NCBI GenBank assembly: GCA_043819075.1
Contig: JBDRFE010000041.1
Coordinates: 1 to 26,393, forward strand
From: an archaeon
GTDB taxonomy: Archaea > Iainarchaeota > Iainarchaeia > Iainarchaeales > 1-14-0-10-31-34
Direction of reading: 5' to 3'
DNA length: 26,393 nt
Positions 951 to 25,458 of this stretch are shown here, in pieces. The first letter of the stretch is position 1. Each line of letters opens with the position of its first letter. The translations under genes and the position numbers were made by a program. Below the pieces are notes generated by a model. That model searched no databases. It was not told where the DNA came from and worked only from the letters and a program-made list of their open reading frames with translations.

Positions 951-1087
951 TTGTATAACTAATCACAGATTAACTTAAATATTTTTCATCAGAACTTACA
1001 ATCATTTAAAAAATTGCCTGTGTGTTCGCTGATTGACGTTGAAAAAGGCTTTTAAAAGCGTTGGGAAAAAATTAAGTCAGCAAAAAA

Positions 1088-1121
1088 GCTTTAAAAGGTT
1101 TGGTATATACCTGTATATACT
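1088..1121 (+). promoter_or_regulatory. TATA box plus two tandem GTATATAC palindromes immediately before the ATG (probable leaderless, autoregulated promoter)
   Basis: TTTAAAAG at 1090-1097 after an A-rich BRE-like tract; GTATATAC at 1103-1110 and 1113-1120; ATG at 1122. Confidence 0.55.
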
Positions 1122-1934
1122 ATGATTAAAACGGTTAATGTCTTGGAAGAGATTGAGAAAGAAGTTGTTCCGTTCGGCAACGGAAGCATTGTTTACACTC
1201 CAAAAAAATGGATTGGAAAAAAAGTCTTAGTGGTATTAGAAGAAAAACCAATTGATGTTAAGGGAGAAGCAATGGAAATGTTAAAGCCTTTTCTAAGCAG
1301 CATTCAGGGAGTTTTTTTGTTCGGGAGTTTTGCAAGAAAAGAGCAGACAGAAGAATCTGACGTGGATTTGCTTGTTATTTCAGACAAAAAAATTGAACTG
1401 AAAAGAAAAGGAAGATTTGATTTTATTGCCAAAACAAAAGAAGAGTTTTTTGAAGAACTGAAAAAAGATTCAAATCTTTTCCTGCATCAGATTTTACAGG
1501 AAGCTGAACCAATCTTTAATGAATCTCTCCTGAAAGAACTCAGGGGAAAAAAAATAAAACCGGATTTCAGGGAATTCTTTAACCAGACCTTAGGCGCATT
1601 CAAGAATACCCAGGAACTGCTTGAAGCAGAAAGAAAAAAAGGAAAAAAATACCTTGATTCAACTGCAGTGATTTACTCATTAATTTTAAGGCTTAAAACA
1701 CTTTTCCTTATTCAGTGCTTCACGGAAAAAAAAGGATATTCAAACAAAAAATTCAGGGAATTCATTAAGAGAAACGGATTCAAGGAAAAAACCGCTGAAA
1801 GTTTTTTTAGCGTATACAGGGCAGAAAGAGATGGGGAAAAAACCAGCCATAAAATCGCTTTAGAGAATGTGGAAAAATTGTTTGAGACAGCCAAAATTGA
1901 GTTCCTGAAAGCAGAAGAAACGGTGAAAAATTGA
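1122..1934 (+). CDS. DUF2080-like N-terminal domain fused to a minimal nucleotidyltransferase (Pol-beta family) and a helical HEPN-like C-terminal domain
   Basis: N-terminal EKEVVPFGNGSIVYTPKKWIGKKVLVV matches the DUF2080 pattern; LFGSFARKEQTEESDVDL is the GS...DxD nucleotidyltransferase motif; helical C-terminal half. Confidence 0.85.
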   Translation: MIKTVNVLEEIEKEVVPFGNGSIVYTPKKWIGKKVLVVLEEKPIDVKGEAMEMLKPFLSSIQGVFLFGSFARKEQTEESDVDLLVISDKKIELKRKGRFDFIAKTKEEFFEELKKDSNLFLHQILQEAEPIFNESLLKELRGKKIKPDFREFFNQTLGAFKNTQELLEAERKKGKKYLDSTAVIYSLILRLKTLFLIQCFTEKKGYSNKKFREFIKRNGFKEKTAESFFSVYRAERDGEKTSHKIALENVEKLFETAKIEFLKAEETVKN

Positions 1935-2095
1935 ATAAAAAAAAATACAAAAAAGCAATTGAGTCACTGGATAAAAGGATTTTAGAGCACAAAGAAAAAC
2001 AGAAAACAGCCAAAAACTCCGGGTTGTTTGGTTACTGGGAAAAAGAAATAAAAAAGTTTGAAGCAGAAAAGAAAAAGAAACAAAAATGGATTTAA
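1931..2095 (+). CDS. Small basic helical protein (54 aa), not in the ORF track
   Basis: TTG start overlaps the upstream TGA stop (TTGA), with a GGTGA Shine-Dalgarno at 1922-1926; translation MNKKKYKKAIESLDKRILEHKEKQKTAKNSGLFGYWEKEIKKFEAEKKKKQKWI; fills the gap before nadA. Confidence 0.75.
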   Translation: MNKKKYKKAIESLDKRILEHKEKQKTAKNSGLFGYWEKEIKKFEAEKKKKQKWI

Positions 2096-2164
2096 AACAG
2101 ATTAATTTATCATACTTTGTATGATTGAAATGGATTTTAAAAGTTCACGCAACAAAAGATTTTT

Positions 2165-3196
2165 ATGGAAAAAAGCTCTTTTTATTCAGAAGAAGAAGTG
2201 AAAAAAGAAGCTGAAAGGCTGTACGAAAAACTGAAAAAAACTGGTTTCAGCAGAGATGAATGCATTTCTTTTGCACCATTGACATTAGAAATCAATAAGC
2301 TGAAAAAACAAAAGAATGCAGTGATTTTAGCCCACAGTTACCAGACACCAGACATAATTTATGGAGTATCAGATTTTGTTGGAGACTCATTAGAGTTAAG
2401 CAAAAAAGCCGCTGAAACAAAAGCAGAAACAATTGTTTTTGCCGGCGTAAAATTCATGGCAGAAACAGCAAAAATTTTGTCTCCAAAAAAAACTGTTTTG
2501 CTTCCATCACTTGAAGCAGGATGCAGTTTAAGTGAATCAATTACAGCAGAAGATGTAAGAAAATTAAAGCAGCAGCATCCTGGAATTCCTGTTGTATGTT
2601 ATGTGAATACTTCTGCAGAGGTAAAAGCTGAATGTGATGCCTGCTGTACTTCAGCTAATGCATTACAAGTTGTAGAAAGCTTTAAGGAAAAAGAAGTTAT
2701 TTTTCTGCCTGATGAATTAATGGCAAAAAACATCCAGAACCAGACAAGCAAAAAAATTATTGCCTGGAACGGGTTATGCGTTGTTCACAAAGAATTCAGG
2801 GCAGAAGACATTAAAGAAGTGAAAAAAAAATATCTTGGGGTAAAAATTTTAGTGCACACTGAATGCAATCCAAGTGTAGTAGAGTTATCTGATTTTGCAG
2901 GCGGAACAAACGGAATGATTAATTATGCTAAAACCCATACAGATAAAAAATTCATGATGGTAACAGAATGCGGGTTAACTGACAGAATGAAAACCGAGCT
3001 GCCTGAAAAAAAGTTTGTCGGCACATGCGAGTTGTGCCCTTATATGAAAAAAAATACTTTAGAACTTATTTTACAGGCTTTAAGACACCCAAAAAAAGAG
3101 CAGATAATTGAATTGCCGGAAGAAACAATCAGAAAAGCAGGAAAAGCAATTGATTACATGATGAAAACAAAATCTGATTCTAAAGTTTTTGACTGA
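2165..3196 (+). CDS. nadA: Quinolinate synthase A
   Basis: ILAHSYQ, GDSLELS, GVKFMAE, AGCSLS, YVNTSA, CVVH, HTEC and CPYMK motifs; three Fe-S cysteines. Confidence 0.96.
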   Translation: MEKSSFYSEEEVKKEAERLYEKLKKTGFSRDECISFAPLTLEINKLKKQKNAVILAHSYQTPDIIYGVSDFVGDSLELSKKAAETKAETIVFAGVKFMAETAKILSPKKTVLLPSLEAGCSLSESITAEDVRKLKQQHPGIPVVCYVNTSAEVKAECDACCTSANALQVVESFKEKEVIFLPDELMAKNIQNQTSKKIIAWNGLCVVHKEFRAEDIKEVKKKYLGVKILVHTECNPSVVELSDFAGGTNGMINYAKTHTDKKFMMVTECGLTDRMKTELPEKKFVGTCELCPYMKKNTLELILQALRHPKKEQIIELPEETIRKAGKAIDYMMKTKSDSKVFD

Positions 3197-3719
3197 AATA
3201 ACTGCCTGTTTTTTCCATTAAAATATACCCAAAATCAAATGCAAGAATTCCAAGCCAGATAATCCATTTACCTGAAACAAAAGAAACAATTAAAGCGGTT
3301 AATTCAATTAAAGGCCTTAATTTCATGAATTCGTTCAGCAATTTATTTTTTATTTTATTTTTGTCCACGATTTTGTCGTTAACTATTTCTTCTGCAAAAG
3401 AAACAGAAAAAAATAAGAGCAGGTAAAATACATTTATTTCTGAAACCCCTAAAAAAACAAGTGAAACAGCCATTGAAGCAATTCCAAGGTAATGCCCTGA
3501 AGAATTAATTTTTCCTAAAACAAGAAGCGAAACAACAACCGCAACCCATAAAGCTGAAAGCTCCGGAGAAACAAAAACCACAAAAGCTATAAGGAAGCCG
3601 TAAATTATTCCTGAAATCCTTGCAAAAATTAAAGGCAGTTTTAATCCGTGCTCTTCAATTAAGTCAGTTAATTTTGAAAGCAGGCCTGTAAAAAAAGCTG
3701 CCAGCAAAATAAAAATCAT
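3180..3719 (-). CDS. Hypothetical multi-pass membrane protein, last gene of the agmatinase/DHS operon
   Basis: 179 aa with about 6 hydrophobic segments; ATGA overlap with the upstream fusion gene. Confidence 0.8.
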   Translation of the reverse strand: MIFILLAAFFTGLLSKLTDLIEEHGLKLPLIFARISGIIYGFLIAFVVFVSPELSALWVAVVVSLLVLGKINSSGHYLGIASMAVSLVFLGVSEINVFYLLLFFSVSFAEEIVNDKIVDKNKIKNKLLNEFMKLRPLIELTALIVSFVSGKWIIWLGILAFDFGYILMEKTGSYFSQKL

Positions 3720-5050
3720 TTTTTATTCCTTTTAACAAGATTTTCTTTCATTGAATAAAACAATAAAGGAAACAAAATTGTTGCATCGCCTTCAACAAAA
3801 ACATGGTCTGCTGTTTCATTTATTTTTCCCCACGAAACAGCTTCTTTTACTTTTGCACCTGAAAGCGAACCATCAGATTCAGTTGCGGTTGAAACATAAA
3901 CAGCATAATTTAATCCGTCTCGAAGGATGTTAATGCCGATTGTGTGGTGTTTTGCAATTCCCCCGCCCAAAATTATTCCAGCAGTCTTGTCTGCTGCAAG
4001 AACCAAGTCAGCTAATTCCTGCATGTCGGCAGTAACATCTATTCCAAATTCCTTGTTCCTCTGCTTAAAAGAAAACAACTGCAATCCAAATGCTCCGTCA
4101 GTTATTGCAGGACAGAAAACAGGAATATTGTTTTTTGTTGCCCAATATAAAATTGAGTTCTCGTCTTTGATTTTTTTTCCTAACTCAAAAATTATTTCGC
4201 TTGCAGAAAGCATTTTTCCTTTTTCTTTTTGCTTTAAAAGCATTTCACTGAAAAAAGGCATGAGTTGTTTTTCTAACCATTCATACCTTTCATTCGGCAC
4301 AAAAACATTTCCTATTCTGTTAATTCCCTTTTTATGAAGTTCTAAGTCGTTTACATCAAAGCTTCCGAGCAGAAAAGGCTTGTGGGTTTTCATTAAGTCT
4401 TCTTCAACTGAACCAACTGAAGTGATTACAGCTGAAACCATTTTATGCTTTAACATAAAAGCAAACAATTCCCTTAAGCCAGAAGAAACCATATTAGAAG
4501 TAAAACTCAGAAAAACAGTGCATTTTTCTTCCTGCATTTTATGAATTATTTCAGCAGCCTTTGAAAGATGTGTTGCCTGAAAGCCAATGGATTTCATTGC
4601 AGAAACAAGCTCTGGAATTGTTTTAGAATCAGTTGTTCCTTTAACAGCCTGAGTTAAGTCATCTAAATTAAGTGTTCCTGTTCCCCTGAAATTCATGTTT
4701 TTTTCTATTTTTTTGGGGAAAAAAAATTCATTTAAAACAGCGACAACTTTTTCTGAATCAAATTCCCTGCAGGAAAAAACATCAACAAAAGCCTCTGCTT
4801 TTTCTGGGTAAGAATGAATTGAAATATGGCTTTCAGCAATAATTACAAAACCTGTTATCCCGCTTTCTTCATTGTGTTTGTGCTTGTATGAAACAACAAC
4901 TGGTTCAGTTAATCTTTTCATTTCAATTGAATCAGAAACCCTGATTAAAAATTCCTTGATTTTTTCCTTATCATTTAATGCTTTTTTATCACAGCCGGAA
5001 CAGTCAAAAAAAATATTGTTTCCTTTTCCGTGAAAACATTTTACTTCCAT
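3716..5050 (-). CDS. dhs: Fusion: AdoMetDC/SpeD-fold pyruvoyl-dependent decarboxylase (aa ~1-123) plus deoxyhypusine synthase (aa ~135-444)
   Basis: N-terminal GITGFVIIAE/SHISIHSYPE...DVFSC...RG (self-cleavage site E73/S74); C-terminal GFQAT, TSNMVSSGLRE, NRIGN, PAITDG, GGGIAKHH, DGSLSGA, EAVSWGK (catalytic Lys) and EGDAT; one uninterrupted frame. Confidence 0.93.
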   Translation of the reverse strand: MEVKCFHGKGNNIFFDCSGCDKKALNDKEKIKEFLIRVSDSIEMKRLTEPVVVSYKHKHNEESGITGFVIIAESHISIHSYPEKAEAFVDVFSCREFDSEKVVAVLNEFFFPKKIEKNMNFRGTGTLNLDDLTQAVKGTTDSKTIPELVSAMKSIGFQATHLSKAAEIIHKMQEEKCTVFLSFTSNMVSSGLRELFAFMLKHKMVSAVITSVGSVEEDLMKTHKPFLLGSFDVNDLELHKKGINRIGNVFVPNERYEWLEKQLMPFFSEMLLKQKEKGKMLSASEIIFELGKKIKDENSILYWATKNNIPVFCPAITDGAFGLQLFSFKQRNKEFGIDVTADMQELADLVLAADKTAGIILGGGIAKHHTIGINILRDGLNYAVYVSTATESDGSLSGAKVKEAVSWGKINETADHVFVEGDATILFPLLFYSMKENLVKRNKK

Positions 5051-5853
5051 AAAAGCACCTTTTTGAAAATATTTGCTGCAAGAATTGCAGTCTGGGAATT
5101 AACTTTTTCCGAAGCGCATTCAGTTAAATCAAACCCGATTAAATTGTTTTTGCAGGCTGTTTTCAGCAAAGAAAAAAATTCTTCCGGGTTCATTCCCATC
5201 GGCTCAGGCGTTCCAACTTCCGGCGCAAAACTCGGGTCAAATACATCTAAGTCAACTGAAACGTATACTGGTCCGGAAATTTTTTTTAAAGAAGATTTTA
5301 TTTTCTTTTTTTTTGCAATCTTTTCTTCTTCTGAAGAAGAACTTCTTATCCCTAACTGGATTAAATCAAATTTATTGCTTTTCAACAGTTTGTTTGCCCA
5401 AGTGATGTGAGAGTAAAGTTCTCCCATCCATTCAGGCAATAAATCCCTGTGGGCATCAAAATGAATTACAGTGATTTTTTCTTTTTTTATTTCAGATAAA
5501 GCATTTAATGCTGCAAGAGAAATTAAATGGTCTCCGCCCAAAAACACTGGAAAAATTTTTGGGTTTTCCTTGAACAATTCTTTTACTGTGTCCCTGATTT
5601 TTTCTTCAGTTAATTTCCAGTTTGCCTGTGTTACTTCAACGTCGCCTGAATCAGTGAACTTAAATTTTTCAAAAACATTCTGTTTTGATTGCAAGTCATA
5701 GCCTGGCAGGTTCCTTATTGCCTCTCGGATAAACAATGGGCCATGTTTAACTGATTTTCCTGTTTCACTTGAATCCCAAGGAATACCCAATAAAGCTATT
5801 TCAGCCTGTTTTACTGGATACTCAAAAGGAAAAGTGCGAATAGTGTGAAGCAT
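5041..5853 (-). CDS. speB: Agmatinase (ureohydrolase family)
   Basis: GGDH, DAHRD, SVDLDVFDP and GTPEPMG metal-binding motifs. Confidence 0.9.
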   Translation of the reverse strand: MLHTIRTFPFEYPVKQAEIALLGIPWDSSETGKSVKHGPLFIREAIRNLPGYDLQSKQNVFEKFKFTDSGDVEVTQANWKLTEEKIRDTVKELFKENPKIFPVFLGGDHLISLAALNALSEIKKEKITVIHFDAHRDLLPEWMGELYSHITWANKLLKSNKFDLIQLGIRSSSSEEEKIAKKKKIKSSLKKISGPVYVSVDLDVFDPSFAPEVGTPEPMGMNPEEFFSLLKTACKNNLIGFDLTECASEKVNSQTAILAANIFKKVLLWK

Positions 5854-5869
5854 AAAATTATTCTCTAAA

Positions 5870-5972
5870 GAAAGGGTTTAAAGGTTAAAGGAAAGAAAAA
5901 GCATTAAAAAATCAAATATTTAAAAAATGCTCGGAAAACAGTATTTTAAGAACAAAAAAAAGGGGGAATTAA
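5870..5972. promoter_or_regulatory. Divergent promoter region between speB and the ornithine carbamoyltransferase gene
   Basis: TTTAAA at 5877-5882, about 25 nt from the speB ATG (leaderless spacing); TTTAAA at 5919-5924 and a G-rich SD-like AGGGGG at 5961-5966 before the ATG at 5973. Confidence 0.5.
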
Positions 5973-6905
5973 ATGCACTTAAGAAGCTTAAACGATTTCA
6001 CAAAAAAAGAATTATTGGAAGTAATAGATTCATCACTTGAAATAAAAAATCATCCTGAAAAATTTGAGAAAGCAATGAAAGGAAAAACTCTTTTAATGCT
6101 GTTTGAAAAGCCGTCTTTAAGGACAAGAGTGTCATTTGAAACCGGAATGACTCGAATGGGGGGCCATGCAATATTTTATTCAATAAAAGATTCTCCTTTA
6201 GGAAAAAAAGAATCAATTGAAGACACAGCAAAAACCGCTTCAAGGTTTGTTGACATCATAATGGCAAGATTATACAAACAGGAAGATTTGGATGCATTAG
6301 CAGAAAACTCTGGTGTGCCAGTAATCAATGCCTTGACAGACAAATACCATCCATGCCAGATTGTCGCTGACTTGCTGACAATAAAAGAAAAAAAAGGAAA
6401 ACTAAAAGGACTAAAATTAGCTTACTTTGGAGACAGCAACAACAACGTAACTCATTCCTTGATGCTTGGGTGCACTATGGTTGGAATGAATATCAGCATT
6501 GCATGCCCTGAAGGAAAAGAATTTGAACCAAAAAAAGATGTATTAGAAAAAGCTTTAAAGAATGCAAAAGAAACAGGCTGCAAAGTTGAAGTACTGCATG
6601 ACGCTTTCGAAGCAGCCAGAAACTCTGATGTAGTTTACACTGACTCTTGGATGTCATACCATATTCCTGAAGCAGAAAAAGATGAAAGAATAAAAATTTT
6701 CAATCCATTCCAGGTAAATGAAGCTTTAATGAAAAAAGCAAAGCCTGATGCAATTTTCATGAACTGTTTGCCTGCAATTAGGGGCATGGAACAGACAGCA
6801 GAAGTGATTGACGGAAAACAGTCAGTGGTATTTGATGAAGCAGAAAACAGATTGCATACACAGAATGCAATAATGCTGGCTTTAATGAAAAAACGGGAAA
6901 AATAG
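5973..6905 (+). CDS. argF: Ornithine carbamoyltransferase
   Basis: FEKPSLRTRVSFE, HPCQ, GDSNNNV, YTDSWMS, FMNCLP and EAENRLH motifs; anabolic versus catabolic direction cannot be determined from sequence. Confidence 0.92.
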   Translation: MHLRSLNDFTKKELLEVIDSSLEIKNHPEKFEKAMKGKTLLMLFEKPSLRTRVSFETGMTRMGGHAIFYSIKDSPLGKKESIEDTAKTASRFVDIIMARLYKQEDLDALAENSGVPVINALTDKYHPCQIVADLLTIKEKKGKLKGLKLAYFGDSNNNVTHSLMLGCTMVGMNISIACPEGKEFEPKKDVLEKALKNAKETGCKVEVLHDAFEAARNSDVVYTDSWMSYHIPEAEKDERIKIFNPFQVNEALMKKAKPDAIFMNCLPAIRGMEQTAEVIDGKQSVVFDEAENRLHTQNAIMLALMKKREK

Positions 6906-7024
6906 TTCAGAAAAAATAAAACAAAAAAACGGAAAAAACAATTAAGAAAAAATTGGAAAAAGAATTAGACTAAAGAAAAAAAACAGAAAAGAATTGAAAA
7001 AAATTCTGAAAAACAAAGAAAAAG

Positions 7025-7057
7025 GATGGAATTAAAATTCCATCTAAAATTGTTTTT
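7025..7057. terminator. Inverted repeat plus T-tract between convergent genes
   Basis: GATGGAATT-aa-AATTCCATC (7025-7044) followed by a T run; the A-rich stretch 6906-7024 gives many U-tracts on the minus-strand transcript. Confidence 0.45.
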
Positions 7058-8503
7058 TTATTCTGGTATTAATCCAGTGCATCTCCAGTTAATTTCAGCT
7101 GTTCCTGTTTCCTCTGAAACAACACAAGCCGGATTGCATCCTTGTTTTTTTACATTCAAGTCAATCCACCATGTTTTGCTGTTTTCATTATAAGTTGTGT
7201 TTTCTTTTAGCTGTCCTTCCTGAATGCATTCACTTTCCAAAGCAATTTCTCTTGCCTGTTCTTTTGAGAGTTTCATAAAAGAAACCTGCACACATTTTTT
7301 TTCAATACATTTTATTGCAAGGTTTCCTCCAATTCCTGAACAAAAATCAGGGCACTGCTGTGTTTCATCAACAAACTCTTTGTTTCCAAAAAAACATTCC
7401 CTTGATTCTGTGTCGACTCCGCAACCACAATCAGAAGCCTGTTCACAGAAGTTCTGTTTTCCGTCGCTTTTCTGATTCCAGACAACATTAACTTTGTCGG
7501 TTTTTTCAACTGAAATGACTGCAAAAGGCTGGACTGTAATCTGGGTTATTGCAGTGCCTTCATCTGGTTCAGTGTAAATTTCTTGTGCAAAAATCGTTAA
7601 CTGTTTTCCTGAAAGCATTACTTTGCTTATGTTCAGGCTGTATTTTGGATTAAACTTTTCTCCCAAAAAAACTGCAATAACTGTTTTTGATTCAAAGTCT
7701 ATTATAGGAAGCTCTGGAACAGGAGATTGGTTTAAATAAATTTTAGTGTATATTTGGATTAATTCTTCCGGCGAGTTTGCAACCTCAAAACCTTTTTCTG
7801 TTACCCCTGACTGGGTTCCTTGTTCAATCAAAGAAAAATCAATTTCTTTTTCACCAGGTTTTTCTATTCTTCTTTCATTGAACTCTTTTTCTGCGAGGAT
7901 TTTAATTACTGGCTTGAGCTTGTATGTGTTCCCTGTTTTGATTACTGATTCAGGAGAAAAATCAATTACTAATTCAGTTGTTTTTCCTGCTTCAATTGAA
8001 AAGTTTCTCACTAACTTTATTTTATCTGACGGCACTTCAACATCAAATGTTTCGCCGTTGATTGTGGCTTTCACTTCTTTGACTGCAAGCCTGATTTGAG
8101 TGTATTTTCCTGCGTCAAGCTGTTTTTCTCCAAGCAATGCTTTCAGGCCTTCGCTTGATTTTAATGCCATTAAATCAAAGGTTTTTTCTTCTGAAGAAAA
8201 AACAATCCAAGAAGCATTTTGTTCTGTTTCCTGTTCAGTTTCATTTCCATTGCCAGAATTTTCATCTGAATTCAAATCAGAATTCTGATTTTCATTTGTT
8301 TCCTGGTTTTCTGTTGAAATCCTATGCACTTCAATTGAAGAAATAGTTACATCCAGTTTCTCTAATCCTTCAACTTCTTTGTCTGTAATGCTTAAAAGAA
8401 GGTTCCCTGTTTTTTGCTCCGGCTTCGGAGGGTTAAACGGATCAACACACCCTGCAAAAAGCAAAATTAATGAAATTAATCCTATTACAATAAATTTATT
8501 CAT
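7058..8503 (-). CDS. Multidomain lipoprotein: DUF4382-like domain, PrcB C-terminal-like domain and two Cys-rich modules
   Basis: Lipobox LLFAGC; LSITD...VTISSIEVH...GKYTQIRL...VPSDKIKL...LVIDF...YKLKPVI (DUF4382 pattern); PIIDFESKTVIAVFLGEK...TQITVQPFAVISV (PrcB_C pattern); C-terminal CNPACVV...INWRCTG; GAGGTGA SD upstream. Confidence 0.85.
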   Translation of the reverse strand: MNKFIVIGLISLILLFAGCVDPFNPPKPEQKTGNLLLSITDKEVEGLEKLDVTISSIEVHRISTENQETNENQNSDLNSDENSGNGNETEQETEQNASWIVFSSEEKTFDLMALKSSEGLKALLGEKQLDAGKYTQIRLAVKEVKATINGETFDVEVPSDKIKLVRNFSIEAGKTTELVIDFSPESVIKTGNTYKLKPVIKILAEKEFNERRIEKPGEKEIDFSLIEQGTQSGVTEKGFEVANSPEELIQIYTKIYLNQSPVPELPIIDFESKTVIAVFLGEKFNPKYSLNISKVMLSGKQLTIFAQEIYTEPDEGTAITQITVQPFAVISVEKTDKVNVVWNQKSDGKQNFCEQASDCGCGVDTESRECFFGNKEFVDETQQCPDFCSGIGGNLAIKCIEKKCVQVSFMKLSKEQAREIALESECIQEGQLKENTTYNENSKTWWIDLNVKKQGCNPACVVSEETGTAEINWRCTGLIPE

Positions 8504-8670
8504 TTCTTTCTCACCTCAAAAATAATATAGTAATAAATTCTTGTATCAAGTCCTTAAAAAAGATTCCTGAATTTGAAGTAAAAAACCTTAAAAACTGCCT
8601 TTTTCAAAAGGCAAGTAACGCTTTTGCAGTAAAGAATAAGATTAAAAATCCAAAATTACAATAATTTATA

Positions 8671-8943
8671 GGGTAGTGGAAGACCGGCTGACGGTACCAT
8701 TTTTCGAAATGGAGCTGAGGAAAGTCCGCTCACTCATTCCAAAAAAAATGATTCCGAGAGGAATTCCTGGAGAGCAGAAACGATACCAACCAGAAATTAC
8801 AATGACCTTTAGTGAGATTTTCTGGAAAAAGGATGAAACGTGCTTCAGGTTAAACAGAACTGAAATAAGTTCTGGGAGTGCAAGCCTTTAAGGCGCTAAG
8901 GTGAATGCCGGCAGAACAGAAAGCGGCTTACTCTCCACAACCC
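8671..8943 (+). ncRNA. rnpB: Archaeal RNase P RNA (compact, about 273 nt)
   Basis: GAGGAAAGTCCGCT (from 8718) pairs with ACAGAAAGCGGCTTA (8916-8930) to form P4; P1 GGGTAGTGGA/TCCACAACCC; P2 CCGGC/GCCGG; conserved GCAGAAAC and TGAAAC segments; P5 CACTC/GAGTG. Confidence 0.95.
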
Positions 8944-9056
8944 CAAAACCTTTTAAGAAAAGGTTTATCAAAAAGTACGGCATAAAGCCGTACGAAAAAA
9001 GTTTAATCAAAAACAACTTTTCCAAAAGTTGTAACAAAAAAGTTGAGTGATGCATT

Positions 9057-9353
9057 ATGCCTATGATGAGAGAAATTAAATTTCCTGAACCAACCAAAGA
9101 AATTATTTTAATAAGGGAAAAACTGCAAAAGTTTGGTTTAGGAACAGTCTCTGAAATGATTGCAAAAACAGGCAGTTTTCAGGGAATAGACAGGAATACA
9201 GTTGAAAAAGCAATTTATTCGCTTGACAAGAAAAAAACTTTAACCCAAAGAATGCTCAGAGAAGAAAAAGACCCTGCAAAAATCCAGGTAATAAAAAAAG
9301 CCATTGAAAGCGATGAAAACGAATTAACTTTTTTCAGGGACATAATAGATTAA
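9057..9353 (+). CDS. Hypothetical protein (98 aa, helical)
   Basis: ATG ORF with host-like codon usage; GAGTGA SD-like sequence upstream; no motif recognised. Confidence 0.7.
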   Translation: MPMMREIKFPEPTKEIILIREKLQKFGLGTVSEMIAKTGSFQGIDRNTVEKAIYSLDKKKTLTQRMLREEKDPAKIQVIKKAIESDENELTFFRDIID

Positions 9354-9506
9354 AAGCCAAAAACACAGCCAAACCAAACAAAGGCTGAACCGGATAAAAT
9401 AACTTTTTTCCTGTTTTGCTGAAAGCAAAACAAAAAAAACTGCAACCAACAAATTTAATTACTTTTACTGCTTTTAAATTATAGAATGCAATGAACAGGC
9501 GATGAA

Positions 9507-12161
9507 ATGAGTGTCTCAAAAAAAGAATTAAAAGAAAAATTTGCCGGAGAATGGACTAAACACTACAAGCTGGATTTCTTTAAAGAAAAAGGTTTTACCA
9601 GAAAGCAATGCAAAAAATGCGGGGTAAATTTCTGGACTTCAGACGAAAAAAGAGAAGTGTGCGCTGACTCAAGCTGCGTTGGATACGAGTTCATCGGGAA
9701 AAAAACCAAAAGCTTTGATTACGTTGAAACATGGAGGGAAATAGAAAAATATTTTGCAAAACACGGCCACACTTCAATTAAAAGATATCCGACTGTTTCA
9801 AGATGGAGAGACGACCTATATTTTACCAATGCATCAATAATCGATTTCCAGCCATACGTAGTTAACGGAGAAGTAGAGCCTCCAGCTAATCCATTGATTG
9901 TGCCACAAACAAGCATCCGTTTCGGCGACGTAAACAATGTTGGAGTAACTGGAAGGCATTACACTTGTTTTGTAATGTTTGGGCAACACGCATTCAACAC
10001 AAAAAAAACAGGAATGTTTTACTGGAAAGAAGACGCAATAAGAGACAACTATAATTATGTGCTAAACGTTTTAGGCGTAAAAGAAAAGGATTTAGTGTTC
10101 CAAGAAGAAGTCTGGGCTGGCGGAGGAAGTTTTGGGCCATGCATTGAATACTGTGCCAACGGAATTGAATTAGGGAATATTGTTTTCATGCAATACAAGG
10201 ACATGGGGAACGGAAAATACAGGGACTTAGAAACAAAAGTAATTGACATGGGAGCAGGATTAGAAAGATTAGCATGGTTTACTAACGGAACAGCAACAAG
10301 CTATGAAATAACTTTTGGCAAAGCAATCCAGGACATGAAAAAATTTACCGGAATAAAAATGGATGAAAAAATGTTTTCAGATTACGCTAAACTGGCTGGA
10401 GTGCTTTCAAGCGATTTAAAGGATTATGAAAAACAAAAAGAATTAATCGCAAAAAAAATCGGCGCAGGAAAAGAGTTTTTCTCTGAACTAGAAAAGTTAC
10501 AGGCATTGTATGCAATAGCTGACCATTTAAAGAATATTCTTTATACAACCAATGACGGAATGCTTCCATCCAATTCAGGCGGAGGATACAATTTAAGGAT
10601 GCTGTTAAGAAGGGTTTTTGCATTCAACAAAGAATTCGATTTTAATCTTGATTACGGAAAAATAATTGAAAATCATGCATTTCATTTAAGGAATTTAGAC
10701 GAAGAAATAAGCGATGGAGTAAGAACTGCAGCAGAAATAACTGAAGAAGAAGAAAAAAAATATAATGCAAACAAAATTAATGCAGAAAAAAAATTAAGTG
10801 CAGTAATAGAAAAAGCTAAAACAGAAAAAAAATCAATTGATTCAACTGAATTAATGAAATTATATGAATCAGACGGCATTGCACCAGAAACAGTCAAAGA
10901 AATTGCATTAAAAAAAGGAATTGAAATTAATGTGCCGCAAAACTTTTACCAGATGATTGCAAAAGAAGATGAAATAGAAAAAGAAAAAGGAAGAGAGTTT
11001 TTAGCTGACTTTGAGAAAACACTGCCATTGTATTACGAAGACAGGTACATGCAGGAATTTCAGGCAAAAGTACTGGGTTCAATAGAAAATTATCTTGTAT
11101 TGGATAAAACAGCTTTTTACCCTGAAGGCGGAGGCCAGGCAGGGGATACAGGAGAAATAAACGGAGTGAAAGTCCTTGACACACAGCAACAGCACGGCGT
11201 TGTATTACATGAAATGGAAAAAATTAATTCGTTCAGGAAAGGAATTACTGTAATAGGAAAAATTGACTGGAAAAAAAGATACAGCATAATGAAACACCAT
11301 ACTTCAGCGCACATACTTAATGCCGCTGCAAGAGAGGTTTTAGGCAACCATATATGGCAGGGCGGAAGCAAAAAAGAAGAACATAAAGCACACTTGGATT
11401 TAACTCATTTCAAAAAAATTTCTCATGAAGAACTCAAAAAAATCGAGTTAAATGCAAACAGAATCATTCAGGAAAACATTGAAATAGAAAACATTGAAAT
11501 GGACAGGAATTTAGCTGAACAAAAATTCGGCTTCAGGCTATACCAGGGAGGGGCTGTCCCTGGAAAAAAACTGAGGATTTTAAACATTAAAGGCTATGAC
11601 GTTGAAGCCTGCGGGGGAACACACTTAAAAAACACCGGAGAAATCGGATTGTTCAAGATAATCAAAAGAGAGGGCACAAAAGACGGAATTGAAAGAATTA
11701 CTTACACAGTAGGATTAAGTGCTGTAAGGTTTATACAGGAAAAAGAGGATGCAATTAAAGAAACAGCTGAAGTACTGTCTTCGCCTGAAACAAAAATCGC
11801 TGAATCAGCTAAAAGAATAATAGAGGACTGGAAAAAATTAAGAAAACAATTAAACAAAGGGCCAGAAACAGAAATAAAAGTAAAAAACCCTTCTGGAAGA
11901 AATTTTGTTTCAGCCGACGAAATGCCTGAAAAAGCAGTTATTGCTTTGGCTGACAGGCTTGCAAAAGAAAATCCTAAAGCAGAATTTGTTTTGGTTAACG
12001 GAAAAGAAGTTATTGTAATTGAAGGGAATCAATCAAAAGCCAGTGCAAAAAAAACCCTGCAAGAAATTTTTTCAAAAGCAAAAGGAAAAGGCGGGGGAAC
12101 AGAAAAAATTGCAAAAGGAAAAATAGAGGACAGGGCTGCACTGGACAAAATGAATAAATGA
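9507..12161 (+). CDS. alaS: Alanine--tRNA ligase (archaeal type)
   Basis: Archaeal N-terminal CKKC...C..C zinc region; RWRDDLYFTNASIIDFQP, GRHYTCF, DMGAGLER, HHTSAH and ACGGTH editing motifs; C-terminal GKGGG. Confidence 0.98.
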   Translation: MSVSKKELKEKFAGEWTKHYKLDFFKEKGFTRKQCKKCGVNFWTSDEKREVCADSSCVGYEFIGKKTKSFDYVETWREIEKYFAKHGHTSIKRYPTVSRWRDDLYFTNASIIDFQPYVVNGEVEPPANPLIVPQTSIRFGDVNNVGVTGRHYTCFVMFGQHAFNTKKTGMFYWKEDAIRDNYNYVLNVLGVKEKDLVFQEEVWAGGGSFGPCIEYCANGIELGNIVFMQYKDMGNGKYRDLETKVIDMGAGLERLAWFTNGTATSYEITFGKAIQDMKKFTGIKMDEKMFSDYAKLAGVLSSDLKDYEKQKELIAKKIGAGKEFFSELEKLQALYAIADHLKNILYTTNDGMLPSNSGGGYNLRMLLRRVFAFNKEFDFNLDYGKIIENHAFHLRNLDEEISDGVRTAAEITEEEEKKYNANKINAEKKLSAVIEKAKTEKKSIDSTELMKLYESDGIAPETVKEIALKKGIEINVPQNFYQMIAKEDEIEKEKGREFLADFEKTLPLYYEDRYMQEFQAKVLGSIENYLVLDKTAFYPEGGGQAGDTGEINGVKVLDTQQQHGVVLHEMEKINSFRKGITVIGKIDWKKRYSIMKHHTSAHILNAAAREVLGNHIWQGGSKKEEHKAHLDLTHFKKISHEELKKIELNANRIIQENIEIENIEMDRNLAEQKFGFRLYQGGAVPGKKLRILNIKGYDVEACGGTHLKNTGEIGLFKIIKREGTKDGIERITYTVGLSAVRFIQEKEDAIKETAEVLSSPETKIAESAKRIIEDWKKLRKQLNKGPETEIKVKNPSGRNFVSADEMPEKAVIALADRLAKENPKAEFVLVNGKEVIVIEGNQSKASAKKTLQEIFSKAKGKGGGTEKIAKGKIEDRAALDKMNK

Positions 12162-12167: not shown

Positions 12168-13991
12168 TCATTCGATATAGTTTGTTTTTACTTCAATTAC
12201 TCCTTTGACTTTCTTCAGTTTTTTCAGCAGGGCATCAAATTTTTTATGATTTAACACATTCAAAGTAAAAGAAAATTCTCCAATCATTTTCTCATAATTT
12301 GTTTTTACTTCAGCTGAAAAAATGTTTGAATTAAGAGAAACAATAACTTCAGTTAAATCCTTGAGCAAGCTAATCCTGTCAACTGCCTTTACTTCAAAAT
12401 TAACTAAATGAATTTTTTCTTTCACTGATTCTTTTCCTTTAAAATGCTTTTGTATTTCGTCCCTGGCTTTAGCTGAAATAGCAAAGTTTTCCCAAACCTT
12501 TGAAACTCTTTTCTTTTTTCCAAACAGCATTTCAACCAAGTCTCCGTTGCTTAATTCATGCCATAAAGGAACAAGCTTTCCGTTAACTCTTGCTTTCACT
12601 GCCTTTTCAGCTGTTTCTTTGTCAACTGCAAAAGCAAAATCAATTATTGAAGCTCTTTTAGGCAGTTCAATTAAGTTACCGCTTAAAGTGAAGACAAGAA
12701 TTCTTTCCTGCAGGTAATCAGATTTTAATACATCAATAAAGTGTTTTGTTGGAAGGTCATCAAAATTAATTGACATTAAATTATTCAAAAAAGAAAGGTT
12801 TTTTTGGAATACAATCGGATCGGCTTTTGATTCCCTTAAAAGTTCTGACACACCTTTTTTAACAAGGGCATCCATTTGTTTTGTCCTGATATAAACTTTT
12901 ATCGGAGAATGATTTGGTCCAATAACAGTTGTATGAATTGACTTATACAAGGCAAACTGTGATATTGCAATATGGTCCCTGAACTTTAAAGGCACAGGAG
13001 AAAAAGTGTTATGCAATAAACCCAAAAACTCATAGCATTCTTCTCTTGTTTCAGCTAAAGCAACTAATACAACATAATCCTGGACTTCATTAAAAGACTT
13101 TAAATTCTGGGTCATTTTCTTGAATACACTGTAAACTGTTCTCCTGTACTTTGAAAAAGAAATTTTCAGGCCTGCTTTCTGGAGCTCTGGCTCAAGCCTT
13201 TTAATAACCAAATCCATTTCAGCTTCTTTTGGCTTAAGATTCTTCAAGAGCTTGTGCTTTATTTTTGCATGAATTTTTGGCTTCACTATCTTAAAGCAGA
13301 TTTTCTCGAATTCATCTTTTAATTCATGCATTCCGAGTTTTTTTATTACAGGAACATAGAATTCAAGCACATTAGCCGCAATCATTGCTTGTTTTTCTTT
13401 TGGCAGGAAATTAATTGTCTGCAGGTTATGGTATTTGTCTGCAAGCTTTATCAAAATCACTCTAACGTCTTTTGTTGTAGCAAACAATATTTTCTGCAAA
13501 GTGACATTGTATTCTTTTCTATCACTCATTGAAACAATTTTTTTTAATTTAGTTAGGCTTTCAACAAGCAGGGAAACTTCTTTTCCAAAAATATCCCGTA
13601 TTTCGCTGACACCTGTTTCAGTGTCTTCAATTATGTCATGCAATAAGCCTGCAGCAACTGAAGCTGCATCCAAATTAAGTTCAGTTAAATAAAATGCTGT
13701 GCTGTAAGGGTGAACAAAATACGGGTCGCCTGAAATTCTTTTCTGTCCTTTATGCTTTTCTTTTGAATACCAAAAAGCCCTTGAAATCAGTTCTGAGCCA
13801 AGCTCTTCATGAGGCGCTCTCTTAAATATTTCAAGCGCTTTTTTCAGTATTTTTCTCCTCTTTGAATCAATTAAAGCCCTTCCAAACAAGCCTGTTTCCT
13901 GTTTGTTATAAAAATAATAATTTCTTAAAAGCTTTTCAAGCAATTCATTGTAATTCAATCTCTTTTTTTCCATAAAAAAAACCTTTTGCAT
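12168..13991 (-). CDS. Long RelA/SpoT homologue: HD hydrolase + degenerate synthetase + TGS + ACT (predicted hydrolase-only)
   Basis: HKGQKRISGDPYFVHP, LLHDIIEDT and IKLADKYHN (HD); YSVFKKM, CYEFLGLLH, YKSIHTTV and IRT (synthetase fold); VFTLSG...DFAFAV...VNG...GDLVE (TGS); AVDRISLLKDL (ACT). Confidence 0.92.
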   Translation of the reverse strand: MQKVFFMEKKRLNYNELLEKLLRNYYFYNKQETGLFGRALIDSKRRKILKKALEIFKRAPHEELGSELISRAFWYSKEKHKGQKRISGDPYFVHPYSTAFYLTELNLDAASVAAGLLHDIIEDTETGVSEIRDIFGKEVSLLVESLTKLKKIVSMSDRKEYNVTLQKILFATTKDVRVILIKLADKYHNLQTINFLPKEKQAMIAANVLEFYVPVIKKLGMHELKDEFEKICFKIVKPKIHAKIKHKLLKNLKPKEAEMDLVIKRLEPELQKAGLKISFSKYRRTVYSVFKKMTQNLKSFNEVQDYVVLVALAETREECYEFLGLLHNTFSPVPLKFRDHIAISQFALYKSIHTTVIGPNHSPIKVYIRTKQMDALVKKGVSELLRESKADPIVFQKNLSFLNNLMSINFDDLPTKHFIDVLKSDYLQERILVFTLSGNLIELPKRASIIDFAFAVDKETAEKAVKARVNGKLVPLWHELSNGDLVEMLFGKKKRVSKVWENFAISAKARDEIQKHFKGKESVKEKIHLVNFEVKAVDRISLLKDLTEVIVSLNSNIFSAEVKTNYEKMIGEFSFTLNVLNHKKFDALLKKLKKVKGVIEVKTNYIE

Positions 13992-15703: not shown

Positions 15704-15870
15704 TCAACCCAATATAAGCTTGAACAAAAAAGTTAATAAAAAATGCTTTAACTGTGTTTTGCTTCAAAGCACGGAATTCAACAAGATTTTTATAGCAGGC
15801 TTGTTTTTTATCTTACAAATTGCTCTTTAAAAACACAAAACATAATAAGGTTAAAGGCAATAGTTTTTAC

Positions 15871-17829
15871 ATGAAAAAGCTTTTTGTTTTATTTTTAATT
15901 CTGCTTTTTGCGGTTTTATTGTCCGGCTGTCCGGATTCAAAGGACTCAAACAATTCAGACAAAAATATGGCTGACTTAAACCAGTTAAATGATTTTAATG
16001 CAGTTGATAAAAATGTTTTTGATTCAAATGCCTCTGATGAAAACTCTTGCACTGAAGACTGGGAATGCAGTGAATGGAGTGAATGCATTAACGGAAAAAA
16101 ATCTCAGGAATGCTGGGACAACAATGAATGCGGTTTAGCCAATAACTTAACTGAAATTAGGGATTGCGATGAAAATGTTTTTGATTTAAATGCTGTTGAT
16201 AAGAATGAATTTAACCCAAATGTTGACGAAAACGGCAATTGCATTGAAAACTGGAATTGCACTGAATGGAGTGAATGCATTAACGGATGGGAAAAAAGGT
16301 CCTGCGCTGAACAAAACAACTGCAGCACAACTGAATTATCGCCAAGATTATACCAGCATTGCGGGGAATGCATTCATGAAGAAGTAGCTGACTGCAACAC
16401 AGATGACGGCTGCGGCGGAACACAAGAATGCATTGGAGGAGAATGGCAGGAATGCACTGACAACCCTACAGACAACTGTCCCGGAGACTGCATAAACGGT
16501 TACATAAAGTCATGTTATGCTAACATTAATGGAATTAGTTGCCCTGGAATCAAGACTTGTTCTGACCATAAGTGGGGCAGTTGTATTGATGTCACTTTTG
16601 ACAATTGCCCTTTAAACCCAGCTCCAGTAATTGAAGTAAGCCATTTAGAGCCGTTATCTGGAACAAGCGTGACCTTGAATAAACCTTTTACTTTTCAAAC
16701 CCAAATTAAATGCACTTTAAATGAGTGCACGACTATTTATGCAACTCTGTATTATACCTATGATTATGCCTATGGAACAATCACGGGCAAGGTTCCCGTA
16801 GGCGCAGGCAGCCTCTTTTTTACTTCTAGCTCAAACCATCAGTTTATCTCTAAAATGAATAAAGATGATATTTTAACCAACACTTGGCAGGTTACTCCCA
16901 CAGGAGGAACCGGAAACACTTATTCTTTTTATGTTGGCTATTCTGGATCGTATATTCCATCAAATACACAAACTCAAAAAACAAACTTGACTGTGACAGA
17001 AGACTTAAACTGTGACGAAGAAACAACTGAAATTGAATTAAAAGAAGGAAATTTATATTATAAAGACGAAAGTGCAGTACAGCATGTTCTTCCTTTTTAC
17101 AAGTCGTTCGTGGGAATTATAGATAACTCTGCAGGCACAATTTTAATTGACGGCCAGACAATCTGGTTTAAGCTGGACATAATAGACGAAAACGCATCTG
17201 ACTTTAATACAGGAAACCTTGTTTATACAAGAGTCCTTACTTTCAGAAAAAACAATTCAGGCGGGCAGGTGATTAAAACAATTAATTACTCAGAAGAACA
17301 AATGTCTATGCCAATTGAATTTGAAGGATTAAACGGAAAAAAATATAACTATTCTTTATTGATAGATGAAACAGACTCATTAACTTATGCAAATTTGTGG
17401 CTGTTTTTTTATGGGAGCCTAAAAAATATAATTTACACTCAATACAACAAAATCATAAGTTTAAATGACGCAACAAACTCCAGCGCAGACCCGATGAAAA
17501 GCTATCCATATTATATGCTTCATAATTCTAATTTGCCGGAAAGCTTTGGAGGAGGCACAAACTATAATGCAAATGATGAATTTATTGCAAAATTTTATTT
17601 AAATGAAGATGGAGACAGTGATACTGATATTATAATTGCAATAGATACTGCCACAGGAAATTTAGCGGTTTATAGTTACCCTGAAGTAATGTATAATGGG
17701 GAGCATACCTACTTAAGCGAAAACCCAAATTTTAGTTATCCTTCTTCTGGATACACTTCTTATGGCTCTTTTATTGAGTTAAATAGTCATCACTTCAAAA
17801 TAACTATTCCGGAAAACTCTTGTAGTTAA
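15871..17829 (+). CDS. Cys-rich surface lipoprotein; start placed at ATG 15871 rather than TTG 15820
   Basis: MKKLFVLFLILLFAVLLSGC signal/lipobox; repeated CxExWxCxEWSECING modules; beta-rich Thr/Tyr domain; acidic C-terminal domain. Confidence 0.85.
   Translation: MKKLFVLFLILLFAVLLSGCPDSKDSNNSDKNMADLNQLNDFNAVDKNVFDSNASDENSCTEDWECSEWSECINGKKSQECWDNNECGLANNLTEIRDCDENVFDLNAVDKNEFNPNVDENGNCIENWNCTEWSECINGWEKRSCAEQNNCSTTELSPRLYQHCGECIHEEVADCNTDDGCGGTQECIGGEWQECTDNPTDNCPGDCINGYIKSCYANINGISCPGIKTCSDHKWGSCIDVTFDNCPLNPAPVIEVSHLEPLSGTSVTLNKPFTFQTQIKCTLNECTTIYATLYYTYDYAYGTITGKVPVGAGSLFFTSSSNHQFISKMNKDDILTNTWQVTPTGGTGNTYSFYVGYSGSYIPSNTQTQKTNLTVTEDLNCDEETTEIELKEGNLYYKDESAVQHVLPFYKSFVGIIDNSAGTILIDGQTIWFKLDIIDENASDFNTGNLVYTRVLTFRKNNSGGQVIKTINYSEEQMSMPIEFEGLNGKKYNYSLLIDETDSLTYANLWLFFYGSLKNIIYTQYNKIISLNDATNSSADPMKSYPYYMLHNSNLPESFGGGTNYNANDEFIAKFYLNEDGDSDTDIIIAIDTATGNLAVYSYPEVMYNGEHTYLSENPNFSYPSSGYTSYGSFIELNSHHFKITIPENSCS
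16071..16287 (+). repeat. Intragenic duplication (192-nt spacing) of a Cys/Trp module
   Basis: TGAATGGAGTGAATGCATTAACGGA identical at 16071-16095 and 16263-16287; upstream DFNAVDKNVF / DLNAVDKNEF also duplicated. Confidence 0.85.
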
Positions 17830-17876
17830 AACACAAAATAAATAGGCTTAAATAAGAGATTTTACTTTATTAATTC

Positions 17877-25415: not shown

Positions 25416-25458
25416 AAAAGCTTTTTTACTTGTTTTAACACAATTTTATAGGAACAAT

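What the first reader, a model, noticed from the sequence alone, without database searches (positions are those of the whole stretch)
3716..5050. Self-cleaving pyruvoyl decarboxylase fused to deoxyhypusine synthase
Seen: one frame joins a complete AdoMetDC-fold proenzyme (E73/S74 cleavage site, downstream His and Cys retained; the usual N-terminal GxH reads GNN) to a full DHS with its catalytic Lys. Autocleavage would release a 73-aa beta chain and leave a DHS carrying an N-terminal pyruvoyl enzyme. Established: AdoMetDC-fold proteins have repeatedly become arginine or ornithine decarboxylases, and DHS modifies IF5A with an aminobutyl group. Inference: the fusion may channel the decarboxylation product straight to DHS, which makes more sense if the product is agmatine or putrescine than decarboxylated AdoMet. 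I do not recall this fusion being characterised.
Basis: partly seen in the sequence, partly recalled or inferred. Interest (0 to 1): 0.8.

Follow-up and report, generated by a model that had tools for sequence, protein, structure and literature searches.

The report
Decarboxylase fused to agmatine-type deoxyhypusine synthase
A tiny-celled archaeon joins a self-cleaving enzyme that probably makes agmatine to an unusual version of the enzyme that modifies the translation factor aIF5A, next to a hydrolase and a membrane protein of unknown kind, which suggests a spermidine-free route to an essential protein modification that can now be tested directly.

Summary
The fusion is real (minus strand, 444 aa, junction intact in independent assemblies) and recurs in DPANN archaea (56 of 120 top hits). 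(1) The DHS half keeps its catalytic His/Glu/Trp/Lys but has lost all three residues that anchor spermidine in human DHS (D243L, N292G, D316L); two of these mirror the agmatine-coupling enzyme CdmS/SpeY. (2) It is the middle gene of a coupled operon: ureohydrolase, fusion, unnamed membrane protein. (3) Among 53 related genomes this DHS class goes with a ureohydrolase (15/16 vs 2/18 for human-like DHS), an arginine-decarboxylase candidate (14/16 vs 2/18) and the membrane gene (15/16 vs 0/18), is usually the only DHS, and replaces the canonical DHS at the same locus in sister species. The fused domain never co-occurs with PvlArgDC, so it is most likely an arginine decarboxylase. Best reading: Arg to agmatine; DHS puts 4-guanidinobutyl on aIF5A; ureohydrolase yields deoxyhypusine (about 50%). 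Channelling is unsupported: the domain is as often fused to the membrane protein, free, or lost. No activity was measured. This scan noted the same module on two other genomes.

The parts
3716..5050 (-). Fusion ORF, 444 aa: SpeD-fold pyruvoyl proenzyme + deoxyhypusine synthase
4682..5050 (-). SpeD (class 1b AdoMetDC) fold domain, aa 1-123; probable arginine decarboxylase (SpeDA-like)
4829..4834 (-). E73/S74 self-cleavage site; S74 would become pyruvoyl (S74 in 55 of 55 fusions); H79 at 4814-4816, C94 at 4769-4771
4643..4681 (-). Short linker, about aa 124-136 (10-15 residues across 55 fusions; lower model confidence)
3716..4642 (-). DHS domain; catalytic H368, E403, W407, K409 kept (human H288, E323, W327, K329)
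4082..4084 (-). L323 in place of human D243 (anchor of the aminopropyl leaving arm); L in 54 of 55 fusions
3935..3937 (-). G372 in place of human N292; G in 55 of 55 fusions
3863..3865 (-). L396 in place of human D316 (anchor of the transferred aminobutyl end); L in 51 of 55, never Asp
5041..5853 (-). Agmatinase-family ureohydrolase, 270 aa, stop overlapping the fusion start by 10 nt; only ureohydrolase found in the genome
3180..3719 (-). Unnamed polytopic membrane protein, 179 aa, ATGA-coupled to the fusion stop; conserved K16, D19, D/E23, K70, D72 (Asn here), H76, E111, R135, D162, Y165
5056..5060 (-). Shine-Dalgarno-like AGGTG 5 nt before the fusion ATG
   Evidence: read from the sequence; not tested against chance
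5973..6905 (+). Ornithine carbamoyltransferase, divergent flank marking the conserved slot; also present beside canonical DHS, so not part of the module
2165..3196 (+). nadA, convergent flank marking the conserved slot

Best explanation
A three-gene DPANN operon for spermidine-independent modification of aIF5A. Step 1 (inferred, about 85%): the N-terminal domain self-cleaves at E73/S74 and, as a pyruvoyl enzyme, decarboxylates arginine to agmatine. Step 2 (inferred, about 70% for agmatine as donor): the DHS domain oxidises agmatine's primary-amine carbon with NAD+, releases ammonia, holds the 4-guanidinobutyl group as an imine on K409 and passes it to the GKHG lysine of aIF5A. Step 3 (inferred): the upstream ureohydrolase removes urea to give deoxyhypusine. 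The membrane protein is a fourth, unexplained component; my best guess is an arginine/agmatine permease, with a metal-dependent membrane enzyme close behind. The fusion keeps supply and use co-expressed; it is one of several interchangeable arrangements, not a channel. Shown here: gene anatomy, residue changes, co-occurrence, same-locus replacement. Not shown: any activity.
For: Pocket: human DHS holds spermidine by D316 at one end and D243+N292 at the leaving-arm end (PMC7226451); the agmatine-coupling CdmS has Phe and Leu at 243 and 316 (PMC10981699); the window has L, G, L at 243, 292, 316, almost invariant in 55 fusions. Co-occurrence in 53 genomes at least 90% complete with a DHS (of 58 searched): this class (16 genomes, 12 genera) has a ureohydrolase in 15, an ADC candidate in 14, the membrane gene adjacent in 15; human-like D243/N292/D316 genomes (18, 8 genera) 2, 2 and 0; genus-collapsed 12/12 vs 1/8, 10/12 vs 1/8, 11/12 vs 0/8. 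ADC identity: the window-class domain (13 genomes) and PvlArgDC (12) overlap in 0 of 53 and in 0 of 30 in a second phylum (7 and 7); 4 of 4 further fusion genomes have no speE and no PvlArgDC match; in a tree the class lies apart from FxP-type AdoMetDCs with SpeDC nested inside, the topology reported for the clade holding the assayed DPANN ADCs (PMC10407285). aIF5A role: DHS is near-universal here (53 of 58); this class is the only DHS in 13 of 16 genomes, including G083 (1 contig, 99%) and G150 (2 contigs, 97%), and in 4 of 4 other fusion genomes; the OTC-nadA slot holds this module in G000 and G014 but a lone canonical DHS in G015, which has no ureohydrolase match; DHS of this class, membrane gene, aIF5A and a ureohydrolase are adjacent in L083; the target GKHG is kept. 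G000 and G014 have an ODC-type gene, so they do not need the ureohydrolase for putrescine. Precedent: the same three steps were proposed for H. volcanii (PMC5178350).
Against: No activity was measured, and the H. volcanii precedent is itself unproven (its DHS was inactive with agmatine in vitro). D316L alone does not exclude spermidine: P. horikoshii DHS has it with D243 and N292 kept, and T. kodakarensis DHS uses spermidine in vitro (its sequence was not seen). G000 and G014 also encode a spermidine route (SpeD, SpeDC-SpeE), so a canonical donor may be present. Three genomes with this DHS class have no ureohydrolase match (G071, G233, G236) and two have no clear ADC (G166, G208). G014 (96% complete, single DHS) has TGA at a Gly codon before the catalytic Lys; if real, the enzyme is dispensable there. 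G000's bin also holds a canonical DHS on C70, which I read as a misbinned sister-species contig but did not prove. I could not compare the domain with the assayed SpeDA sequences, and the Pro said to mark AdoMetDCs is ambiguous without the figure: the HT[WY]P Pro is kept (55 of 55), the upstream FxP Pro is not. Genomes are related, so the contrasts overstate; the second phylum had no human-like DHS to contrast. 20 of 62 named loci of this class have no membrane gene within 1.5 kb of held DNA.
Confidence: 0.5

Rival explanations
1. SpeY-like free-polyamine pathway: Arg to agmatine, two agmatines coupled to G44G (caldomycin), ureohydrolase gives homospermidine. aIF5A is left alone or is modified second-hand with G44G/homospermidine as donor. 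Not exclusive of the best reading; the enzyme may do both.
For: Same gene trio (speDA, speY, speB) is read as a homospermidine pathway in PMC10407285; all tested bacterial SpeY make G44G and their ureohydrolases are G44G-specific (PMC13625781); pocket changes match CdmS.
Against: The domain scores as archaeal/eukaryote-type DHS (PRK03971 382.7 bits, above cut-off), not SpeY (PRK02492 151 of 500), keeps H288 where the SpeY-like proteins in these genomes have Asn, is usually the only DHS and replaces canonical DHS at one locus; SpeY-like genes occur here as extra copies (G166, G177).
Confidence: 0.22
2. Putrescine route: Arg to agmatine, agmatinase to putrescine, DHS transfers the aminobutyl group from putrescine straight to aIF5A with ammonia as leaving group.
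For: Loss of D243/N292 fits any donor without an aminopropyl arm; the upstream gene scores 171.9 against a cut-off of 174.3 for agmatinase TIGR01230; considered for H. volcanii.
Against: D316, the anchor for a free terminal amine, is also lost; G000 and G014 have an ODC-type gene, which makes a putrescine-making agmatinase redundant, yet keep it coupled to DHS, while G015 with the same ODC and canonical DHS has no ureohydrolase match; putrescine is not a donor for human or T. kodakarensis DHS.
Confidence: 0.15
3. Ordinary AdoMetDC fused to a spermidine-dependent DHS.
For: Passes the TIGR03330 AdoMetDC cut-off (79 vs 75.65); G000 has speE; HT[WY]P Pro kept.
Against: No speE match in 4 of 4 other fusion genomes and in 13 of 16 genomes of this DHS class; G000 has a separate FxP-type SpeD (117.7 bits); all three spermidine anchors are lost.
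Confidence: 0.04
4. The fused domain is an ornithine decarboxylase feeding putrescine to DHS.
For: OTC lies next door; SpeDC enzymes nest within this class in the tree.
Against: Lacks the Gln/Thr/Phe/Tyr SpeDC pattern seen in the genome's own C19 gene; OTC also flanks canonical DHS; tracks with ureohydrolase and excludes PvlArgDC.
Confidence: 0.04
5. The fusion exists to channel the amine directly between active sites.
For: Short conserved linker, 10-15 residues; fusion kept across 49-87% identity.
Against: Domain is as often on the membrane protein, free, or replaced by an unlinked PvlArgDC; fused and unfused DHS interleave in the tree.
Confidence: 0.08

Closest known systems
speDA-speY-speB/aguAB clusters, including the assayed ADCs of Ca. 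Diapherotrites (PIN84875) and Ca. Woesearchaeota (PIN80235) (PMC10407285)
   Same: SpeD-fold pyruvoyl enzyme beside a DHS homologue and a ureohydrolase in DPANN archaea; same processing Ser/His/Cys.
   Different: Those are separate genes read as a homospermidine pathway; no SpeD-DHS fusion or membrane gene appears in the passages read. Here the DHS is usually the genome's only one. Direct sequence comparison with the assayed proteins was not possible.
Bacterial SpeY/CdmS diagmatine (G44G, caldomycin) synthase with diagmatine ureohydrolase (PMC10981699, PMC13625781)
   Same: DHS fold, catalytic Lys, hydrophobic residues at human 243 and 316, partner ADC and ureohydrolase.
   Different: Window domain scores far below the SpeY model, keeps H288, has Gly at 292 and belongs with archaeal DHS; predicted acceptor is aIF5A.
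Haloferax volcanii proposed agmatine route to deoxyhypusine (HVO_1958, HVO_2297, HVO_2299; PMC5178350)
   Same: Same three proposed steps.
   Different: Uses PvlArgDC, its DHS group lacks H288, no fusion; never reconstituted. Window domain scores 221.6 of 364 on PRK02301.
Spermidine-dependent DHS (human; Thermococcales PRK03971, 7CMC)
   Same: Best sequence match; H288, E323, W327, K329 kept.
   Different: Human D243, N292, D316 are L, G, L here; 7CMC keeps D243 and N292.
Class 1b AdoMetDC (T. maritima 1TLU, 2III; TIGR03330)
   Same: Fold, ES cleavage site, His and Cys.
   Different: No FxPxG motif before the cleavage site, no dependence on speE, fused to DHS.

Membership tests
Class 1b SpeD-fold pyruvoyl decarboxylase | Full domain with cleavage Ser, His and Cys | tested here: met
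Class 1b SpeD-fold pyruvoyl decarboxylase | Actual self-cleavage and pyruvoyl formation | not testable with these tools
   needs purified protein
Bona fide AdoMetDC (SpeD) | Co-occurrence with an aminopropyltransferase (speE) | tested here: not met
   speE match in 3 of 16 genomes of this class and 0 of 4 other fusion genomes; G000 itself has speE but also a separate SpeD
Bona fide AdoMetDC (SpeD) | Diagnostic Pro of PMC10407285 Fig. 8 | tested here: inconclusive
   figure not visible; one candidate Pro kept, the other absent
SpeDC ornithine decarboxylase | Gln, Thr, Phe, Tyr diagnostic residues | tested here: not met
   pattern present in C19 gene, absent in window domain
SpeDA arginine decarboxylase | Genomic context: DHS homologue plus ureohydrolase, no other ADC | tested here: met
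SpeDA arginine decarboxylase | Placement with the assayed DPANN SpeDA proteins | tested here: inconclusive
   topology matches the published description but the assayed sequences were not in the tree
SpeDA arginine decarboxylase | Arginine decarboxylation | not testable with these tools
   needs assay
Deoxyhypusine synthase fold family | Full domain with catalytic His, Glu, Trp, Lys | tested here: met
Spermidine-dependent (human-type) DHS | Spermidine anchors D243, N292, D316 | tested here: not met
   L323, G372, L396
aIF5A-modifying DHS | Sole or housekeeping DHS in a genome with intact aIF5A target Lys | tested here: met
   13 of 16 and 4 of 4 genomes; GKHG kept in G000; G000's own bin has a second, probably misbinned DHS
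aIF5A-modifying DHS | Transfer to aIF5A | not testable with these tools
   needs assay
SpeY/CdmS G44G synthase | Family model score (PRK02492) | tested here: not met
   151 bits against cut-off 500
SpeY/CdmS G44G synthase | Hydrophobic residues at human 243 and 316 | tested here: met
SpeY/CdmS G44G synthase | G44G formation from agmatine | not testable with these tools
   needs assay
Agmatinase-family ureohydrolase (upstream gene) | Arginase fold with metal-ligand motifs GGDH, DAHxD, DxD | tested here: met
   substrate not testable
Any known transporter or membrane-enzyme family (downstream gene) | Profile or fold match | tested here: inconclusive
   searches gave nothing above background

The most novel reading that the evidence does not exclude
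A widespread, undescribed archaeal route in which an agmatine-specific DHS class (recognisable by L243/G292/L316) puts 4-guanidinobutyl on aIF5A, a protein-directed ureohydrolase matures it, and an unnamed membrane family (830 clusters at 50% identity, no fold match) is an obligatory partner with its own transport or catalytic step; in genomes without a ureohydrolase the guanidino form may be the final, new modification, and the spermidine-using DHS of eukaryotes may derive from such agmatine enzymes by stepwise gain of D243, N292 and D316.
Probability: 0.3. Interest if true: 0.85.

Novelty: new variant of a known kind. Interest (0 to 1): 0.62.

Why it matters
Whether archaea have agmatine-dependent as well as spermidine-dependent DHS is posed as open in a 2026 paper (PMC13625781), and the agmatine route proposed for Haloferax in 2016 was never reconstituted. 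This locus gives a non-halophilic, single-chain candidate that carries its own donor-making enzyme, a three-residue signature that sorts archaeal DHS by predicted donor, and a natural control (canonical DHS at the same locus in a sister species). It also ties a large unnamed membrane family to a defined pathway. The fusion alone would be a modest finding.

Tried and rejected
Assembly artefact or frameshift at the junction: rejected. Two genuine DHS paralogues in the genome: probably not; C70 repeats six genes of the window's neighbourhood at 67-85% nucleotide identity, three other contig pairs are duplicated likewise, and G110's second DHS lies on a stretch 89% identical to C70. Tetranucleotide profiles did not separate C70 clearly. 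Membrane protein identity: no Pfam or NCBIfam family, Atlas neighbours unnamed archaeal proteins, Foldseek best E 0.72, VIA-align best Z 5.3, within background, no internal repeat (probability 7%); this does not show a new fold. Complex prediction of fusion with membrane protein: no answer. Finding the assayed SpeDA sequences: not in the supplement text nor among 10 proteins looked up; the short-protein search returned only 6 hits. A metagenome scan from the membrane-protein side could not run for lack of a conserved stretch, so its neighbours were sampled mostly from the DHS side. Viral contigs: 1 partial DHS hit, no fusion. No RNA holder listed. TiaS and agmatine deiminase not found in G000, 90.6% complete. 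OTC as part of the module: rejected, it also flanks canonical DHS.
Full report
Observation. The window has one 444-aa ORF at 3716-5050 on the minus strand. It holds a complete SpeD-fold domain (aa 14-123) and a complete DHS domain (aa 147-432), with E73/S74, H79, C94 and K409 in place. AlphaFold2 models both domains confidently (mean pLDDT 90.8, lower in the linker). Contigs from two samples cross the junction without a difference; one may be the source sample. Of the 120 best protein hits, 56 (the window protein included) carry both domains; named ones are DPANN archaea. I aligned 55, leaving out one truncated copy.

Context. The ORF is the middle of three coupled genes: an agmatinase-family ureohydrolase whose stop overlaps the fusion start, and a 179-aa membrane protein whose ATG overlaps the fusion stop. 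The genome (90.6% complete, 2.9% contaminated) also has one aIF5A with GKHG, a stand-alone FxP-type SpeD, an ODC-type SpeDC fused to spermidine synthase, and a second DHS on contig C70. C70 repeats the window's gene order (AlaRS, DUF4382, OTC, DHS, nadA, nucleotidyltransferase) at 67-85% nucleotide identity, and three other contig pairs are duplicated likewise, so I read it as a misbinned sister species; this is inference. It makes a natural control: the OTC-nadA slot holds ureohydrolase + fusion + membrane gene in G000 and G014, but one canonical DHS in C70 and G015.

The DHS pocket. The alignment has no gaps against human DHS over this region (offset 80). Human DHS anchors spermidine N1 with D316 and N10 with D243 and N292, with C5 attacked by K329 (PMC7226451, passages); I infer from that numbering that D316 holds the transferred aminobutyl end and D243/N292 the leaving arm. 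The window has L323, G372, L396 there (54, 55 and 51 of 55 fusions; never Asp at 316) while H368, E403, W407, K409 are invariant. The agmatine-coupling CdmS differs from human at 243 (Phe) and 316 (Leu) (PMC10981699, passages). Against over-reading: P. horikoshii DHS has Leu at 316 with D243 and N292 kept, and T. kodakarensis DHS uses spermidine in vitro (PMC5178350).

Co-occurrence. I searched 58 genomes of the phylum that are at least 90% complete; 53 have a DHS match. Typing them by residue and crossing with searches for speE, SpeD fold, membrane gene, PvlArgDC, ureohydrolase and deiminase (table hand-entered; genomes with two DHS were filed under the non-canonical copy where it was typed) gives: window class 16 genomes, ureohydrolase 15, ADC candidate 14, membrane gene adjacent 15, speE 3; human-like class 18 genomes, 2, 2, 0, 2. 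The other 19 fall in six classes; those without Asp243 (11) all have a ureohydrolase. Collapsed by genus the contrasts hold (12/12 vs 1/8; 10/12 vs 1/8; 11/12 vs 0/8), but kin are not independent and the P values overstate. In 79 named loci from across genomes, 42 of 62 DHS of the window class have the membrane gene within 1.5 kb against 0 of 17 with D243; that set was retrieved with the fusion alignment and some loci are cut by contig ends.

The decarboxylase. SpeD-fold proteins here fall into FxP-type AdoMetDC-like, SpeDC-type and the window's class. G013, whose DHS nests among the fusions, lacks the domain and has PvlArgDC. Four further fusion genomes of unstated completeness have no speE and no PvlArgDC match, and three have a ureohydrolase. 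In a FastTree the class separates from FxP-type SpeD (support 0.95 with one divergent protein) and contains SpeDC, as PMC10407285 describes for the clade with the assayed DPANN arginine decarboxylases (sections 4 and 7). I could not place the assayed proteins themselves.

The acceptor. DHS is near-universal in both phyla (53 of 58; 30 of 30). The window class is the only DHS in 13 of 16 genomes, including two nearly closed ones, and in 4 of 4 other fusion genomes; of the three exceptions two look misbinned and one is a SpeY-like extra copy. In L083 this DHS, the membrane gene, aIF5A and a ureohydrolase are adjacent. That favours aIF5A over free-polyamine synthesis, without excluding both. Contrary points: G014's only DHS has a TGA before the catalytic Lys; G071, G233 and G236 have this class without a ureohydrolase match; G000 and G014 also encode a spermidine route.

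The membrane protein. It belongs to a family of 830 clusters at 50% identity with near-invariant D19, H76, E111, R135, D162, Y165, K16, K70, D72 in the best 150. Of the 21 longer than 215 aa, 18 are fused to a SpeD-fold domain and one to a ureohydrolase, which ties it to this pathway from its own side. Its model is confident (pLDDT 96.5, eight helices) but unmatched. More distant members sit beside other genes. A permease or a metal-dependent enzyme are guesses.

Mechanism. Most likely Arg to agmatine; NAD-dependent transfer of 4-guanidinobutyl via K409 to aIF5A with ammonia as leaving group; ureohydrolase to deoxyhypusine (about 0.5). This is the model favoured but not reconstituted for H. 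volcanii (PMC5178350). Rivals: G44G/homospermidine synthesis (0.22), putrescine as donor (0.15), AdoMetDC or ODC (0.04 each). Channelling is unsupported, since the domain is fused to DHS in 6 and to the membrane protein in 14 of 62 loci. All catalytic steps are inferred.

Literature. Seven searches found no description of this fusion, this DHS class or the membrane gene; the library lacks most subscription papers. Seen: PMC10407285 sections 4 and 7, passages and a supplement search; PMC13625781 abstract, Discussion and passages; PMC5178350 abstract, part of Results and passages; PMC10981699, PMC7226451 and PMC7432094 passages. Figures were not visible; the supplements of PMC5178350 (DHS alignment) and PMC13625781 were not opened and may bear on the residue argument. 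That alpha and beta chains stay associated in class 1b enzymes is recalled. PMC13625781 names agmatine-dependent archaeal DHS as an open question.

Verdict. Real; a new variant of the known speDA-speY-speB kind, whose value lies less in the fusion than in the DHS class and its partners. A tree in which D243-type DHS nests inside D243-lacking types, with intermediates, hints that agmatine use is the older state, but sampling is DPANN-only and the root distant. Two earlier notes of this scan reached similar readings on other genomes; they were seen after my reading was recorded and are not support.

Noticed in passing
G000 contig C70 (L001) vs window 1082-10085: Syntenic duplicate of the window region at 67-85% nucleotide identity with a canonical DHS; with pairs C11/C43, C18/C3 and C25/C37 it suggests a co-binned sister species.
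   Followed up: partly
L120:6599-7960 (G014): Same-genus copy of the fusion has TGA at a conserved Gly codon before the catalytic Lys, though it is that genome's only DHS.
   Followed up: partly
L006:1390-2634 and 259-1371 (G000 C19): ODC-type SpeDC fused to spermidine synthase, convergent with a KamA-family radical SAM gene; the SpeDC-SpeE fusion recurs in G014, G015, G056.
   Followed up: partly
window 12168-13991 (-): Long RelA/SpoT-family gene (HD, synthetase, TGS, ACT) in an archaeon, coupled to ArgRS.
   Followed up: no
L198-L203: Distant paralogues of the membrane protein lie beside KaiC-like ATPase and geranylgeranyl-reductase-like or amine-oxidase-like FAD genes, a B12 radical SAM gene or a glycosyltransferase, not DHS.
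   Followed up: partly
DHS loci: At least six other DHS pocket classes (for example D243 kept with G292/L316; T or L243 with W292; F243) occur in these phyla; all may use different donors.
   Followed up: partly
L113:6400-8868: Two tandem DHS genes, one with Asn at 243, beside a divergent window-class decarboxylase; recalls the paralogue pairs of trypanosomatids.
   Followed up: no
window 5041-5853 (-): The ureohydrolase is about 20 residues shorter than its best solved match between the two aligned blocks, which could open the site to a larger substrate.
   Followed up: no
phylum survey: Only 5 of 58 genomes have spermidine synthase while 18 have only human-like DHS as typed copy, 16 of them without speE, implying spermidine uptake from hosts.
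   Followed up: no
window 1122-1934 (+): DUF2080 domain fused to a nucleotidyltransferase domain.
   Followed up: no
window 22023-22732 (-): PIN domain gene with AbrB/MazE-like partner, a toxin-antitoxin-like pair.
   Followed up: no
window 15820-19142, 23024-26226: Several ORFs of 146-669 aa with no Pfam or NCBIfam family above cut-off.
   Followed up: no
G000 whole genome: No TiaS match although TiaS is the other known archaeal use of agmatine; genome is 90.6% complete.
   Followed up: no
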